Source: Escherichia coli O127:H6 str. E2348/69 (lineage in GTDB: Bacteria > Pseudomonadota > Gammaproteobacteria > Enterobacterales > Enterobacteriaceae). Taken from it: a stretch of 64,000 nucleotides of DNA. Below the pieces are notes generated by a model that saw only the letters and a program-made list of their open reading frames with translations, made no database searches and was not told the origin of the DNA. Positions 41,789-46,815 of the stretch are shown piece by piece. A program made the translations under genes and the position numbers. Location of the stretch: the NCBI RefSeq assembly GCF_000026545.1, contig NC_011601.1. One strand, written 5' to 3'. Numbering within the stretch: the first letter of the stretch is position 1; every line of letters starts with the position of its first letter.

Positions 41789-41802
41789 GCTGAAACGGAT
41801 GG

Positions 41803-41828
41803 CCTGATGTGACGCTGTCTTATCAGGT
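41803..41828 (+). terminator. Hairpin after proP stop (cctgat...atcagg), possible terminator/REP-like
   Basis: Inverted repeat read directly. Confidence 0.35.
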
Positions 41829-41838
41829 CAATTGAACT

Positions 41839-41855
41839 CTTAAGGTTCACTTAAT
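41839..41855 (+). promoter_or_regulatory. PmrA (BasR) box upstream of pmrR
   Basis: CTTAAG-N5-CTTAAT direct repeat, ~45 bp upstream of pmrR ATG. Confidence 0.65.
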
Positions 41856-41899
41856 CTCTGACGCGCATACTCTCCTCCAGGTTAACGGAGGAGAGTGCA

Positions 41900-41989
41900 A
41901 TGAAAAACCGTGTTTATGAAAGTTTAACTACCGTGTTCAGCGTGCTGGTGGTCAGCAGCTTTCTTTATATCTGGTTTGCCACGTACTGA
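41900..41989 (+). CDS. pmrR: Small membrane peptide PmrR (29 aa)
   Basis: ATG preceded by GGAGGAG; MKNRVYESLTTVFSVLVVSSFLYIWFATY is a single TM helix; not in the ORF track (<60 aa). Confidence 0.75.
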   Translation: MKNRVYESLTTVFSVLVVSSFLYIWFATY

Positions 41990-43056
41990 TCTTTTTTCAG
42001 CCGTATACAGGCCCGCGTGCCGGAAGTCTCTTGCCGGTTTTGCAGGAAAAAATGCCCGTGATGCAACTGTGTAATGCGGCTGACAATACTTAACCCCAGA
42101 CCAATCCCGCCATAACGGCTGTCCATTCGTACAAACGCTTTACTCAACTCCCCGCATTTACTCTCATCAATACCCGGTCCTTCATCTTCAACGGCCATGA
42201 CCGCTCCGCCATCTTCTTGCAGCTTAATCATAATGTTGCTGCCTTGTGGGCTATAACGATGGGCGTTTTCTACCAGGTTTCGCAATAACATCCGCAGCAG
42301 GGTTGCATCACCCTGAACGGTGATGTCGGCGGCGCTCTCTGGCAATAGCAGGGTTTGCTGGCGCTGGTCGAGCATGGTACTAAGTTCGTCATACGAGGGG
42401 AGAATGACATCTTCCAGCAGTTTTACATGTTGATAATTACCGGAAGAAAATGACTGTCCGGCACGCGCCAGTTGCAGCAGCTGGGAGACGCTCTCCATCA
42501 TCTGATCAAGTCGTGCCACTAACGGTGCTACATCAATGTGATGCGTTTTCGCCAGCAGTTCCAGATGCAAACGCACCCCCGCCAGTGGCGTTCGCAGTTC
42601 GTGCGCGACGTCAGCGGTAAACAACCTTTCGTTATCCAGCGTGCTGGTCAGGCGACTGACCAGATCGTTTAACGCCGAAACCACCGCATCGATTTCGAGG
42701 GTGGCGCTATGAATGGCAATGGGCGTTAAGTTGTCGGCGGTGCGCGCTTCCAGCTCTTTTTGCAGCTCCGCCAGCGGTCGGGTGATGCGGCGTACCGCCT
42801 GATAGCAGATAAATAGCGTCAGGCTAACCATAAAGACGCCGGGGACAATCAGGCTGGCGACCGCCTCGCGGATCTCACGCATGATGTGGCGATCGTTGTT
42901 GCGATTGTCGCGTAACGCCTGCTCAAACAGCTGAATCTGCTCGGTACTTTCATGCCATAGCCAGAAGACGCTGATCAGCTCGAATACCAGCAGAATAGCC
43001 CCAATGGTCAATATCAGCCGTTGACGTAGTGATATTGGTTGGCGTAAAAAGCGCAT
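41965..43056 (-). CDS. basS: Sensor histidine kinase BasS/PmrB
   Basis: HAMP, HisKA (H-box AHELRTP) and ATPase domains; start taken 3 codons inside the track ORF. Confidence 0.9.
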   Translation of the reverse strand: MRFLRQPISLRQRLILTIGAILLVFELISVFWLWHESTEQIQLFEQALRDNRNNDRHIMREIREAVASLIVPGVFMVSLTLFICYQAVRRITRPLAELQKELEARTADNLTPIAIHSATLEIDAVVSALNDLVSRLTSTLDNERLFTADVAHELRTPLAGVRLHLELLAKTHHIDVAPLVARLDQMMESVSQLLQLARAGQSFSSGNYQHVKLLEDVILPSYDELSTMLDQRQQTLLLPESAADITVQGDATLLRMLLRNLVENAHRYSPQGSNIMIKLQEDGGAVMAVEDEGPGIDESKCGELSKAFVRMDSRYGGIGLGLSIVSRITQLHHGHFFLQNRQETSGTRACIRLKKDQYVANQI

Positions 43057-43065
43057 CAGATTCAA

Positions 43066-43734
43066 TTAGTTTTCCTCATTTGCGACCAGCATATAGCCAA
43101 ATCCGCGCACGGTGCGGATACGGGCTTTGCCCACTTTGTCGCGCAGGTTATGGATATGCACTTCCAGGGTGTTGGTCGAGGGCTCGTTGTCCCAGTTGTA
43201 GATATCGTTGTAGAGAATTTCCCGATGCACCGGGCTGCCTGCTTTAAGCATCAGGCGCGACAGCAGAGCATATTCTTTGGGCGTCAGAATCAGTTCTTCT
43301 CCGCTCATCCATACCTGGCGGCGACCCATATTCAGCGTCAGGTTGCCAACGTTCAGCTCACTTTCGCCCTGATTATTATGGCGTCGTAGCAGGGCGCGGA
43401 TACGGGCGTGCAACTCTTCCAGCGCAAAAGGCTTCACCAGATAATCGTCGGCCCCGACATCCAGCCCGGCGATTTTGTCGGTAAGGGTATCGCGGGCGGT
43501 GAGAATTAACACCGGCAGAGTGTATTTTTTCTGCCGGATACGGGCAAGAAAATGCAGCCCATCTTCATCGGGTAAGCCTAAATCCAGTACCACCAGGCTG
43601 TAATGACCGGCCTCAAGGCTTTGTTCCGCCATCCGCGCGGTGCTCACGCCATCGCACGCGTAGCCTTCGGTTTGCGCCGCCAGAATCAATCCCTGCAATA
43701 ACAGCGTATCGTCTTCAACAATCAGAATTTTCAT
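43066..43734 (-). CDS. basR: Response regulator BasR/PmrA (OmpR family)
   Basis: 222 aa receiver plus winged-helix domain. Confidence 0.93.
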
Positions 43735-45374
43735 TCACTCACTCTCCTGCAAGTTTGCAGAATATCATCCGCAGCCTGGTAATACTTCGTCTCAACGCCA
43801 GTCAGGCCCAATAAGGTTGAGAATAAATTGTCTTGTGAATAGTGTTGCGTTTGCGCCTGTTTTTGCAGGCAGTTCTGGTCAACCTGATACCGTTTTTGAT
43901 AATCCTCCGATAGCCACAGCAGCATCGGTACCTGTTTTTGGCTATCCGGGGCGATGGCATAAGGCAGACCGTGCAGATAGATGCCATTTTCACCTAACGA
44001 TTCACCGTGGTCAGAAAGATAAACCAGGCTGGTGGTAAATTTATCCTGATGTTCTTTCAGCAGATTAATCGCTTTATCAACAATATAGTCGACGTAAACC
44101 AGCGTGTTGTCGTAAGTGTTCACCAGTTGCTCTTGGGTACAGGTCTGGATCTCGTTAGTGTCGCAGGTTGGGGTAAATTTCCTGAACTGCGGCGGATAGC
44201 GGTTGTAATAGGTCGGGCCGTGGCTGCCGATGGTGTGTAAGACAATCACGCCATCACCCTGCAGGTTATTGATGTAATCTTCCAGCCCGTGGAACAGCAC
44301 TTCATCATAGCATTCGCCGTTGATGCACTGACCAGGCAGGTTCAGCGCGGTGACGTTCTGGTGAGGTACGCGATCGCAAACGCCTTTACAGCCGCCATCG
44401 TTGTCATTCCACAGCACGTTGATGCCCGCTCGCTGAATGATATCCAGCACGCCTTCCTGGTGCTGTGCCAGCTCTTCTTTGTAGTGCTCACGCGGCATAT
44501 CCGAGAACATGCACGGCACTGAGACGGCTGTTGCTGTGCCACAAGATGCGGTATTAGGGAAATAGACCACGTTATCTTTTGCCAGGCGAGGATTGGTTTC
44601 GCGTGGATAACCATTCAGCGAGAAATTCTCTGCGCGCGACGTTTCTCCGACGATCAAAATGGTCAGGTTTTTGCGTTTCCCATTTTGCATTAATGGGTTG
44701 CGGTGAGCATCTTCACCAATGCGTATCAGTGGCAGGTTGGCTGACCGCTGGTGAGAGTACCACGACCAGCTAGCAACAATGCTGTTGGACGGGCTTAAGG
44801 ATTTCACCAGTTCTTTGTTGTTGCGAAACAGCGAGGCATAGTCTTTGTAGAACAGTGCGGCAACCAGCAGAATCAGCAGTACAGAAATCAGGATGTTGGC
44901 CCCGCGGAAAAGAACGCTGCGCAGGCGTGAGGTGGTGGATTTGATTTTGATCCAGCAGGCAATAATCGCGGCCAACACGCCACTTAACCCCAGCGTTAAT
45001 AACATTCGTGGCGTCATCAACGCATAACTTTCCGCCGGCGTAGTATCAATGATATTGGTGATCATTGAACGGTCGATGACGATGCCATAGGTCATGATGA
45101 AATATTGTGCAGCCGCACCGACCAGAATAAACAGGCAGGCGAGTGGACGATTAAGCCATAAGAAAGAGCCTAGTGTCAGGACAATATTAATCACGCTGAA
45201 TGCGACGACCGGCATCGACAAGAAAACCAGCACGTTATGCAGTGAATCCAGCGGTAACACCTGTAGCACCTGTTTAAAAAAGGCGATATTCAGGCAGACT
45301 GAGATATAAAAAGTAGCAAGTAATAACCAGGAGAATAAATTTAAAGAGGGTCTTTTTAGTAGGCGCTTCAACAT
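43731..45374 (-). CDS. eptA: Lipid A phosphoethanolamine transferase
   Basis: Start at [10 protein letters not shown] (track extends 15 codons); N-terminal TM helices plus sulfatase-like domain. Confidence 0.9.
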
Positions 45375-45420
45375 CACGGTGTTTCCATCGAACAAAGTGC
45401 GCATATGCTCGCAAAGCAAA

Positions 45421-45437
45421 ATTAAGCCAACCTTAAG
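45421..45437 (-). promoter_or_regulatory. PmrA (BasR) box of the eptA-basRS promoter
   Basis: Minus-strand CTTAAGGTTGGCTTAAT, ~47 nt upstream of the chosen eptA ATG. Confidence 0.7.
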
Positions 45438-45477
45438 TTCTTAAGGTTGGCTTTTATGTTTGCTTGATTAAGGGGAA

Positions 45478-46815
45478 TTAATCTTTGCTTATTGGTGCAT
45501 CTAAGGGATACGGGTTTTTATGCAGCCGGTTGTAATTCAGCGCATACATGGCGGTGATTACCATCAGAGTGACAAATGACCACATAACCTCTTTCGCGCC
45601 GGACCCTACTACGGCCCAGATGCAGTAGAGGAAGGCAATGGTAGTAACTGCCAGGTATGCCGGGCGTGCTTTACCAAAGTGACCGTGGCCGAGCAGCAGT
45701 AACGCCGCACAGGTGTAAAGATATGGCACCAGTGTAAAGATGACCGACACGGAAGAAACCAGACCGAATTCTTTGGTCGCGTTTGGCGAAATGCTACTGA
45801 GCTGGAAGATGGTCATCAAAATACCGACGATAATCAGCCCCGCCACTGGCGTGCCCGCTTTATTTACACGGGCAAAAATCGGTGGGAACAGTCCGTCATC
45901 GGCAGCGGCTTTCGCCGTTTGACCCGCCAGCAACGTCCAGCCGCCCAGTGAACCTAAGCAACCCGCAGCTGCGCAGAAGGAAACAATGGCCCCGGCGGTG
46001 TCACCCAACGCCATCCGTGCGGCATCACCGAATGGCGAAGCAGAAACGCGCAGTGCGGCATTAGGGATCATCCCCATAATCGCGGTGGTAGAAAGTACAT
46101 AGCAAACGGCAGCAATCAATACCCCGCCAATGGTGGCGATAGGGACGTTGCGTTTCGGGTTTTTCACCACACCTGCGGCAACGGAGGCACTTTCCACACC
46201 GATGAACGACCACAGCGTAACGTTAAGGGTACTTTGAATCGCACCGAAGGTGCCCAGACCGCTGACGTTCCATGCCGCCATATAGGTTTCACCACGGAAC
46301 CAGAACCAGCCAAATACGGCAATCCCGACGATGGGGATCAGCGCCAGCACGGTAGCAACGGCCTGTACGCGGGTGATCATTTTCGGACCGACAATGTTCA
46401 GCAGGACGAAGATCCACAGCACCACGACGCAGGTGATGGTTAATACCAATGGGTCTTTCAGAATCGGGAAGAAGTAACTTAAATATCCTACGCCAATGAC
46501 CACCATGGCGATATTGCCGATCCAGCAGGCCAGCCAGTAGAGGACGTTGGTTTGATAACCGAGAAACGGGCCAAAGCAGCGGCAGGCGTAAGCGTAAGAA
46601 CCACCAGGACTTGGGTCGAGGAACGACATTTTGGCGTATACCATCGAGAGCCCCAGCGCACCGATAATCGTCACCAACCATCCATAAATGGCAATCCCGC
46701 CAGTGGAGGCCAGGTTTGCAGGTAACAGAAAAACACCTGACCCCATAATATTCCCCGACACCATCAGGGTGACGGGGATTAAGCCCACTTTGTGAGCATC
46801 AGCATCCGAAGACAT
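45478..46815 (-). CDS. adiC: Arginine:agmatine antiporter
   Basis: 445 aa APC-family transporter. Confidence 0.93.

What the first reader, a model, noticed from the sequence alone, without database searches (positions are those of the whole stretch)
45405..45450. PmrA box for eptA is embedded in a perfect palindrome that also follows adiC
The sequence ccaaccttaag-tt-cttaaggttgg is a perfect inverted repeat just downstream of the adiC stop, and it contains the CTTAAG half-sites of the PmrA box of the eptA-basRS promoter. The same element may therefore act as an adiC terminator hairpin and as a PmrA binding site, coupling acid-resistance read-through to lipid A modification.
Basis: seen in the sequence. 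Interest (0 to 1): 0.3.

Follow-up and report, generated by a model that had tools for sequence, protein, structure and literature searches.

The report
eptA PmrA box overlapping adiC hairpin
The palindrome is real: its downstream half is the already known PmrA/BasR activator site of the E. coli eptA promoter, and the whole of it probably also folds as the terminator hairpin of the upstream adiC transcript, which is ordinary sharing of sequence in a short gap between genes, with no evidence of a regulatory coupling.

Summary
The window is E. coli, with adiC, eptA, basR and basS all on the minus strand. A perfect inverted repeat (14-nt arms, 2-nt gap) lies at 45424-45453, 24 nt after the adiC stop. 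It is the longest short-loop palindrome in the 64 kb; no simulation reached 14 nt.

The canonical PmrA box is not the two mirrored CTTAAGs. It is the direct repeat CTTAAG-N5-CTTAAT (45437-45421, minus strand). That is the 3' arm plus 3 nt, at about -39 to -23 from a TSS predicted from a conserved -10.

The 5'-arm CTTAAG is a third hexamer. Its TTAA core is invariant in 25 Enterobacteriaceae, including those where ybhK, not adiC, lies upstream. So the palindrome core belongs to the eptA promoter.

The outer arms are lineage-specific. They are strongest where no other hairpin follows adiC (Escherichia, C. amalonaticus) and weak where a REP-like hairpin does (Salmonella, C. freundii group).

On adiC RNA the palindrome gives a 13-bp hairpin (-18.8 kcal/mol) with a U-rich tail, a plausible intrinsic terminator. 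I found no 3'-end data and no significant covariation.

Dual use is plausible; regulated read-through from adiC into eptA has no support. Interest is low.

The parts
45478..46815 (-). adiC (arginine/agmatine antiporter) coding sequence; stop codon TAA at 45480-45478
   Evidence: ORF list. NCBIfam equivalog NF007929, 888.5 bits against a cut-off of 574. RefSeq annotation under the match.
45424..45453 (-). Perfect 30-bp palindrome, AAGCCAACCTTAAG-AA-CTTAAGGTTGGCTT. On adiC RNA it forms a 13-bp stem (45453-45441 paired with 45436-45424) with a GAAC loop (45440-45437).
   Evidence: inverted repeat; longest in the window; 0 of 200 simulations; hairpin -18.8 kcal/mol; 76-nt context -23.8 kcal/mol, z = -4.7.
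45412..45423 (-). U-rich tail after the stem (AAUUUUGCUUUG). Counted from the last G-C pair it reads UUAAUUUUGCUUUGC. 3' ends of adiC transcripts are inferred here, inside the eptA promoter spacer.
   Evidence: Terminator-like site reported on both strands. TransTermHP-style tail score -3.79. No experimental 3' ends found.
45459..45465 (-). A-rich tract (AAGCAAA) that can pair with the U-tract segment 45420-45414. This gives the element the symmetry of a bidirectional terminator.
   Evidence: Outer helix in the minimum-free-energy structure. On the + strand the hairpin is followed by UUUUAUGUUUGCUU.
45421..45437 (-). Canonical PmrA/BasR box, CTTAAG-GTTGG-CTTAAT: half-site 1 at 45437-45432, half-site 2 at 45426-45421. 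This is about -39 to -23 from the predicted TSS.
   Evidence: Pattern match. Definition of the box from PMC3973317 and PMC10570014. Nearly invariant in 52 loci. E. coli eptA promoter is PmrA-dependent (PMC2904496). EMSA with an eptA motif (PMC12774351).
45440..45445 (-). Third hexamer CTTAAG (about -47 to -42), starting 8 bp upstream of half-site 1. It is not part of the canonical box. Its TTAA core is invariant across Enterobacteriaceae.
   Evidence: Columns 28-31 invariant in alignments A2 and A3. Absent or shifted in Pantoea and Tatumella. Absent at the pmrR box of 9 species.
45405..45410 (-). Predicted -10 hexamer GAGCAT of the eptA-basRS promoter. The predicted TSS is near 45398.
   Evidence: Inference. 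A, A and T at hexamer positions 2, 5 and 6 are invariant in all aligned species, 10 nt after the box (columns 63, 66, 67). No TSS was mapped here.
43731..45374 (-). eptA (phosphoethanolamine transferase), first gene of eptA-basRS
   Evidence: NCBIfam NF008619, 1075.8 bits against a cut-off of 660. RefSeq annotation.

Best explanation
This is a composite element made by packing two ordinary signals into a 103-nt gap between genes.

(a) DNA level. The 3' arm plus 3 nt is the PmrA/BasR box (CTTAAG-N5-CTTAAT). It takes the place of the -35 element of the eptA-basRS promoter. A phosphorylated PmrA dimer binds it head-to-tail and activates transcription from about 45398.

(b) RNA level. In Escherichia the sequence 5' of the box mirrors it. 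RNA polymerase arriving from adiC therefore transcribes a 13-bp hairpin followed by UUAAUUUUGCUUU. This most likely terminates, and stabilises the 3' end of, adiC mRNA within the eptA promoter spacer.

The two functions act in different molecules and need no cross-talk. The inner part of the 5' arm (the third TTAA hexamer) is a conserved feature of the eptA promoter itself; its role is unknown. Only the outer part (AAGCCAA / TTGGCTT) looks like the terminator-specific addition.

Shown: the sequence features, their conservation, and PmrA dependence of the promoter (from the literature). Inferred: termination, the TSS, and the role of the third hexamer.
For: Box:
- An exact match to the published definition.
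- The 3' arm and half-site 2 are almost invariant in 27 adiC-linked sequences and, in a second alignment, in 25 sequences of which 21 lack adiC upstream.
- A conserved nAnnAT lies 10 nt downstream.
- The E. coli eptA promoter is induced sevenfold by Fe3+, and this is lost in a pmrA deletion. PmrA shifts an eptA promoter motif in EMSA.

Hairpin and terminator:
- Hairpin energy -18.8 kcal/mol; 76-nt context z = -4.7.
- It meets the terminator-like criteria of the scan. Tail score -3.79.
- It is the only hairpin between adiC and eptA in Escherichia and C. amalonaticus.
- Its strength falls where a separate REP-like hairpin lies between adiC and the box: rho = -0.78 over 27 sequences. Across 8 clades rho = -0.71, exact one-sided p = 0.029.
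- Within the genus Escherichia, 9 of 18 columns vary in the 5' flank but only 1 of 14 in the 5' arm.
- It is single-copy. A match to the 54-mer spanning it is found in 5406 of 5426 E. coli genomes, at 99% identity or more in 4811.
- Several 5'-arm changes in Citrobacter are C to U, which keeps G-U pairing on the gene-strand RNA.
Against: - No measured adiC 3' end. adiC and eptA are absent from the Term-seq supplements I could read.
- The covariation test is not significant: 1 pair shows a change on both sides, and the shuffles do as well.
- The U-tract on the gene strand is interrupted (UUAAUUUU). It is cleaner on the opposite strand, where no gene converges.
- Kluyvera tolerates an upstream gene that ends 5 nt before the element, with only a weak hairpin.
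- Extended palindromes also occur where a separate hairpin exists (C. gillenii, C. sedlakii, L030, L046). The link to a need for a terminator is therefore loose.
- The clade-level test uses clades that I defined by eye.
Confidence: 0.6

Rival explanations
1. The palindrome is purely a DNA-level feature of the eptA promoter. The third hexamer and the mirrored 5' arm form a second, inverted PmrA (or QseB) site, so that extra protomers or a second dimer bind. The RNA hairpin is incidental, and adiC ends by other means, for example Rho.
For: - The TTAA of the third hexamer is invariant in all 25 aligned Enterobacteriaceae, whatever the upstream gene.
- It is specific to eptA: it is absent at the pmrR box in 9 species.
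- In C. amalonaticus S646 and C. gillenii the bottom strand reads a full box, CTTAAT-GTTGG-CTTAAT and CTTAAG-ATTGG-CTTAAT (sequences).
- TTAA is self-complementary, so a DNA-binding domain could dock in either orientation (inference).
Against: - In E. coli the mirrored second half-site is degenerate (CTTTTA).
- The two Salmonella subspecies sampled and the C. freundii group lack the outer mirror yet keep the box.
- An 8-bp offset is out of phase with the 11-bp tandem geometry seen in structures.
- No -10-like hexamer lies on the opposite side for a divergent promoter (read).
- The strength of the outer arm tracks the absence of REP hairpins, which a pure protein site would not predict.
Confidence: 0.15
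2. The perfection of the palindrome is a neutral mutational by-product. The self-complementary core (CCTTAAG..CTTAAGG) seeds intrastrand template switching during replication, which copies the constrained box arm onto the other arm. The outer arms have no function.
For: - The 4-nt loop occurs only as GAAC or its reverse complement GTTC among the 23 adiC-linked sequences whose 5'-arm hexamer ends in G. There are no intermediates. This is the signature of a hairpin-mediated loop inversion.
- The only double, compensatory change is C:G to A:U in three near-identical Citrobacter sequences.
- Variation is confined to the 5' arm, while the 3' arm is fixed by the box.
- Extended palindromes also appear in ybhK-context lineages that already have a separate hairpin (L030, L046).
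Against: - The 5' arm is as invariant as the box across six Escherichia lineages, while its flank varies.
- Hairpin strength anticorrelates with REP hairpins.
- Template switching explains the origin of the palindrome, but not its maintenance against decay.
Confidence: 0.15
3. One reading: the element is a regulated valve. Under acid plus arginine, adiC transcription reads through the hairpin into eptA-basRS, possibly modulated by bound PmrA. This would couple arginine-dependent acid resistance to lipid A modification.
For: - The genes are co-directional and 103 nt apart.
- The gene-strand U-tract is imperfect, so some read-through is likely.
- adiC-eptA adjacency is conserved in Escherichia, Salmonella and most Citrobacter.
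Against: - No data of any kind: no paper in the library links the two genes.
- Acid activation of PmrA-dependent genes is already attributed to the PmrA/PmrB system itself (PMC1804205 abstract; review PMC8147483).
- Many lineages insert an additional REP-like hairpin between the genes, which argues for insulation, not coupling.
- eptA-pmrAB works in a ybhK context in Klebsiella, Raoultella and Kluyvera.
Confidence: 0.07

Closest known systems
pmra-box (PmrA/BasR box) of the pmrCAB, pbgP/arn and ugd promoters in Salmonella, E. coli and Klebsiella
   Same: Two hexamers (CTTAAG and xTTAAT) 5 bp apart, in direct repeat, overlapping the -35 region. They lie upstream of the phosphoethanolamine transferase gene and are bound head-to-tail by a PmrA dimer.
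   Different: Nothing differs in the box itself. The eptA version carries an extra conserved TTAA hexamer 8 bp upstream. That hexamer is not part of the published definition and is missing at pmrR.
Rho-independent (intrinsic) terminator, bidirectional type
   Same: A 13-bp stem and 4-nt loop, -18.8 kcal/mol, 24 nt after a stop codon. It has a U-rich 3' tail and an A-rich 5' tract that mirrors it.
   Different: The stem is AU-rich (5 G-C pairs of 13). The gene-strand U-tract is broken by AA. No gene converges to justify bidirectionality. Termination has not been measured.
REP-like extragenic hairpins between adiC and the box in Salmonella and the C. freundii group (and after proP in this window)
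   Same: They occupy the same place (3' of the upstream gene, 5' of a PmrA box). They seem to substitute for the box hairpin.
   Different: The E. coli palindrome is single-copy per genome and has no REP sequence. It is not a REP element.
PhoB pho box / class II-like activation by OmpR/PhoB-family regulators
   Same: The activator site replaces the -35 element, and tandem DNA-binding domains contact sigma region 4 and RNA polymerase.
   Different: The recognition sequence is different. In the cryo-EM complex PmrA is reported to shift about 3 bp upstream.
Quasipalindrome template-switch mutagenesis and hairpin loop inversion (from my own knowledge of E. coli mutagenesis; not checked with the tools)
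   Same: GAAC/GTTC loop flips and concerted arms.
   Different: It is a mutational process, not a functional class. It may explain the origin of the palindrome, not its role.

Membership tests
PmrA/BasR box (pmra-box) | Two hexamers, CTTAAG-like and xTTAAT-like, in direct orientation, separated by 5 bp | tested here: met
   CTTAAG-GTTGG-CTTAAT at 45437-45421 on the minus strand. Definition taken.
PmrA/BasR box (pmra-box) | Overlaps the -35 region of a sigma-70 promoter | tested here: inconclusive
   A conserved nAnnAT (GAGCAT) lies 10 nt downstream, which places the box at about -39 to -23. This is close to the position implied for pbgP. The TSS was not mapped.
PmrA/BasR box (pmra-box) | Lies upstream of a gene activated by PmrA | tested here: met
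   The downstream gene is eptA, followed by pmrA and pmrB. The E. coli eptA promoter is PmrA-dependent (PMC2904496).
PmrA/BasR box (pmra-box) | Conserved in orthologous promoters | tested here: met
   Columns 36-43 and 46-50 are invariant across Escherichia, Salmonella, Citrobacter, Klebsiella, Raoultella and Kluyvera.
PmrA/BasR box (pmra-box) | Physically bound by PmrA at this sequence | not testable with these tools
   Only the literature: an EMSA with an eptA promoter motif. The footprinting papers are not held.
Intrinsic (Rho-independent) terminator | Stable stem-loop containing G-C pairs | tested here: met
   13 pairs, 5 of them G-C, 4-nt loop, -18.8 kcal/mol; z = -4.7 in context.
Intrinsic (Rho-independent) terminator | U-tract directly after the stem | tested here: met
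   UUAAUUUUGCUUUGC. It meets the scan's rule of at least 5 T in 8. Tail score -3.79. It is interrupted by AA, so efficiency is uncertain.
Intrinsic (Rho-independent) terminator | Located shortly after the stop codon of a gene on the same strand | tested here: met
   24 nt after the adiC TAA.
Intrinsic (Rho-independent) terminator | RNA 3' ends map to the U-tract | not testable with these tools
   No adiC or eptA entries in the Term-seq supplements that are held. Other supplements are not held.
Intrinsic (Rho-independent) terminator | Pairing maintained in evolution (covariation) | tested here: inconclusive
   88% of cells are paired, but only 1 pair has a change on both sides and the result is no better than the shuffles. 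The 3' arm is frozen by the box.
REP / BIME repeated extragenic palindrome | Many dispersed copies per genome with a REP consensus | tested here: not met
   Median of one place per genome in 5406 genomes. The sequence is unlike the GCC(G/T)GATG-type hairpins seen in Salmonella and Citrobacter.
Known RNA family (Rfam) | Match at the gathering score | tested here: not met
   Best hits are 22 bits against a threshold of 50, E = 0.08 or worse.

The most novel reading that the evidence does not exclude
The eptA-pmrAB promoter, alone among PmrA targets, may carry a functional third PmrA (or QseB) contact. This would be an invariant TTAA hexamer 8 bp upstream of the box, expanded in some lineages into a complete back-to-back inverted box. 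Occupancy of this symmetric site would then both tune autoregulation of the two-component system and act as a roadblock at the co-encoded adiC terminator hairpin, setting how much adiC transcription leaks into eptA-basRS.
Probability: 0.1. Interest if true: 0.45.

Novelty: already known. Interest (0 to 1): 0.18.

Why it matters
eptA and basRS control phosphoethanolamine modification of lipid A, and with it polymyxin/colistin resistance. Knowing exactly which bases make up the promoter helps in reading resistance-associated promoter variants.

The practical points are three:
- The PmrA box is the direct repeat at 45437-45421, not the mirrored pair.
- The same DNA probably ends adiC transcripts.
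- An unexplained third TTAA hexamer is conserved with the promoter.

None of this changes the current picture of PmrA regulation. If the third hexamer proved to be a real PmrA contact, it would be a modest refinement of how the system autoregulates.

Tried and rejected
- Published 3'-end maps. adiC and eptA are absent from the supplements of PMC7815308 and PMC12207403. No supplements are held for PMC9023263, PMC6061677 or PMC4161252. adiC is probably silent in the conditions used (my inference).
- Covariation support for the stem: not significant.
- Rfam: nothing near threshold.
- REP membership: rejected, because the element is single-copy.
- A divergent, PmrA-driven antisense promoter on the mirrored side: rejected, because no nAnnAT hexamer sits at the matching distance on the + strand in E. 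coli or C. amalonaticus (read).
- The third hexamer as a generic PmrA-box feature: rejected, because it is absent at pmrR in 9 species.
- Marchal et al. 2004 (PMC395753), for the Salmonella yjdB site: not held.
- Literature linking adiC and eptA: only incidental co-mentions.
- My first guess for the -10 (CATATG, 13 nt after the box): dropped in favour of GAGCAT, whose A, A and T are invariant across all species.

Full report
WHAT IS THERE. The window matches E. coli; bases 45300-45600 are 100% identical to strain Nissle 1917. The relevant genes are all on the minus strand. They are adiC (45478-46815), eptA (43731-45374), basR/pmrA (43066-43734) and basS/pmrB (41965-43065). Each scores above NCBI's curated equivalog cut-off. 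The gap between adiC and eptA is 103 nt.

On the gene strand the gap reads: TAA (adiC stop), 24 nt, AAGCCAACCTTAAG-AA-CTTAAGGTTGGCTT, then AATTTTGCTTTGCGAGCATATGCGCAC, and 24 nt later the eptA ATG.

OBSERVATION. The inverted repeat is real and slightly larger than reported: 14-nt arms at 45424-45437 and 45440-45453, perfectly complementary, 2 nt apart. It is the longest perfect short-loop inverted repeat in the 64 kb. None of 200 first-order Markov simulations produced a 14-nt arm. It is single-copy. A match to the 54-mer spanning it is found in 5406 of 5426 complete E. coli genomes, at 99% identity or more in 4811. The palindrome itself was identical in the four intact E. coli strains I aligned.

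WHERE THE PmrA BOX REALLY IS. Published work defines the box as two hexamers, CTTAAG and xTTAAT. They are 5 bp apart and are bound head-to-tail by a PmrA dimer (PMC3973317). [quoted passage not shown]

The window has an exact match, CTTAAG-GTTGG-CTTAAT, at 45437-45421 on the minus strand; 0.07 matches are expected by chance. So half-site 1 is the CTTAAG of the 3' arm. Half-site 2 (CTTAAT) straddles the end of the stem. The CTTAAG in the 5' arm is not a canonical half-site.

Ten nt after the box lies GAGCAT (45410-45405). Its A, A and T (hexamer positions 2, 5 and 6) are invariant in every species aligned (columns 63, 66, 67). I take this as the -10, which predicts a TSS near 45398 and puts the box at about -39 to -23. 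This is inference; no TSS was mapped. The E. coli eptA promoter is induced sevenfold by Fe3+ in a pmrA-dependent way (PMC2904496). PmrA shifts an eptA promoter motif in EMSA (PMC12774351).

THE NATURAL EXPERIMENT. A scan of one genome per species with EptA returned 60 loci. adiC lies directly upstream only in Escherichia, Salmonella and most Citrobacter. In K. pneumoniae the upstream gene is a 301-aa co-directional ORF next to a divergent moaA-like gene. I identify it from its sequence, from my own knowledge, as ybhK. The other Klebsiella, Raoultella and Kluyvera loci share its C-terminal coding sequence.

Three findings follow.

First, the box, the GTT after half-site 1 and the -10 positions are invariant in both gene contexts.

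Second, the TTAA core of the extra hexamer, starting 8 bp upstream of half-site 1, is also invariant in all 25 Enterobacteriaceae aligned. An example is K. pneumoniae, CACCTTAAAATCTTAAGGTTGTCTTAAAAT. The core of the palindrome (CCTTAA-N4-TTAAGG) therefore belongs to the eptA promoter, not to adiC. This hexamer is missing or shifted in Pantoea and Tatumella. It is absent at the second PmrA box of the window, the pmrR promoter, in 9 species. It is thus specific to eptA, and I cannot explain it.

Third, the outer arms (AAGCCAA / TTGGCTT) are lineage-specific:
- Escherichia: perfect or near-perfect, -17.4 to -19.9 kcal/mol.
- C. amalonaticus: -13.7 to -20.2 kcal/mol.
- Salmonella: degenerate, -1.6 and -3.1 kcal/mol.
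- Much of the C. freundii group: degenerate, -3.3 to -12 kcal/mol.

IS IT A TERMINATOR? As RNA from the adiC strand, the element folds into a 13-bp stem with a GAAC loop (-18.8 kcal/mol). In its 76-nt context the energy is -23.8 kcal/mol, z = -4.7 against shuffles. The tail, UUAAUUUUGCUUUGC, satisfies the scan's terminator rule and scores -3.79 on a TransTermHP-style tail measure.

In Escherichia and C. amalonaticus it is the only hairpin between adiC and eptA. In Salmonella and most other Citrobacter a separate GC-rich, REP-like hairpin lies between the adiC stop and the box. Hairpin strength at the box is inversely related to the strength of that upstream hairpin: rho = -0.78 over 27 sequences. 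Across 8 clades that I delimited myself, rho = -0.71 with an exact one-sided p of 0.029.

Within the genus Escherichia, the 18 nt 5' of the palindrome vary at 9 columns, while the 14-nt 5' arm varies only at its outermost base. These patterns fit a role that another RNA hairpin can replace, namely termination or 3'-end protection of adiC mRNA.

Against this:
- The formal covariation test is uninformative, because the 3' arm is frozen by the box. One pair has a change on both sides, no better than the shuffles.
- Some lineages have both a separate hairpin and an extended palindrome.
- Kluyvera has neither.
- The cleaner U-tract (UUUUAUGUUUGCUU) is on the opposite strand, where no gene converges.
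- No 3'-end data for adiC could be found.

A MUTATIONAL SIGNATURE. Among the 23 adiC-linked sequences whose 5'-arm hexamer ends in G, the 4-nt loop is either GAAC or its reverse complement GTTC, with no intermediates. This is what a hairpin-mediated loop inversion produces. The one compensatory double change (C:G to A:U in three near-identical Citrobacter sequences) could have the same origin. Template switching may therefore have helped to build and perfect the palindrome. That weakens any argument from its perfection alone.

MECHANISM, AND HOW SURE.
- Best explanation (0.6): two ordinary signals share sequence in a short gap. They are the known PmrA box, acting as duplex DNA, and an adiC terminator hairpin, acting as nascent RNA. 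The predicted 3' ends fall in the eptA promoter spacer. No regulatory coupling is implied.
- Rival (0.15): a purely DNA-level symmetric PmrA or QseB site.
- Rival (0.15): a neutral by-product of template switching.
It has no supporting data. Acid activation of PmrA-dependent genes is already attributed to the PmrA/PmrB system itself (PMC1804205 abstract; review PMC8147483). Many lineages add a further hairpin between the genes, which points to insulation rather than coupling.

COMPARISON WITH WHAT IS KNOWN, AND NOVELTY. The box meets every sequence-level criterion of the pmra-box family, and the pmrCAB/eptA instance is already in the literature. The hairpin meets the sequence criteria of an intrinsic terminator, bidirectional in form, but is unverified. 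It is not a REP element and not a known Rfam family.

Overlap of a terminator with the next promoter's activator site is an expected result of compaction. I therefore rate the finding as already known and ordinary. The small new points are the eptA-specific invariant third TTAA hexamer, the trade-off with REP-like hairpins, and the loop flips.

Noticed in passing
window 41839-41855 (+), with the ORF at 41900-41989 (+): A second perfect PmrA box, CTTAAGGTTCACTTAAT, identical to the box of the Salmonella diarizonae eptA locus (L010). It lies 10 nt upstream of CATACT and 44 nt upstream of a 29-aa ORF that matches the PmrR equivalog (74 bits against a cut-off of 30). The ORF overlaps the 3' end of basS on the opposite strand. 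The box is conserved in 9 species but has no upstream TTAA hexamer.
   Followed up: partly
window 41869-41896 (+): A perfect 10-bp inverted repeat, ACTCTCCTCC-N8-GGAGGAGAGT, ending 3 nt before the pmrR ATG. Its 3' arm contains the GGAGG Shine-Dalgarno sequence, so the leader could hide the ribosome binding site.
   Followed up: no
window 41789-41838 (+): A REP-like hairpin (GCCTGATGTGACGCTGTCTTATCAGGTC) lies between the proP stop (41788) and the pmrR PmrA box. This is the same order (gene, REP, PmrA box) as adiC, REP, box in Salmonella and Citrobacter.
   Followed up: partly
L004 (E. coli GN04171, NZ_CP095520.1), locus positions 1650-2420: In this blood isolate an IS1 element is inserted inside the 5' arm of the palindrome (after AAAAGCC). 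The sequence then jumps to a truncated alsA, so eptA-basRS and neighbouring genes appear to be deleted.
   Followed up: partly
L064 (Methylobacterium frigidaeris, 230-nt contig); also L063 (Comamonadaceae, 250 nt) and L030 ('Chryseobacterium sp. 18061'): L064 reads as the E. coli adiC-eptA junction, palindrome included. L063 encodes an EptA fragment 93% identical to E. coli EptA. L030 carries an Enterobacteriaceae-type ybhK-eptA locus. All three look like contamination or mislabelling of the assemblies.
   Followed up: partly
L045 (Pantoea sp. RIT-PI-b) and L049 (Tatumella saanichensis), about 60-80 nt upstream of eptA: These Erwiniaceae lack the 8-bp-offset hexamer but have differently centred palindromes around half-site 1: CCTTAATTAAGG, and AAACCTTA-CT-TAAGGTTT. 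Palindromes around this box therefore recur with different geometry.
   Followed up: no
E. coli genome searches: Three of the matching places for the adiC-eptA junction are on records labelled as plasmids rather than chromosomes.
   Followed up: no
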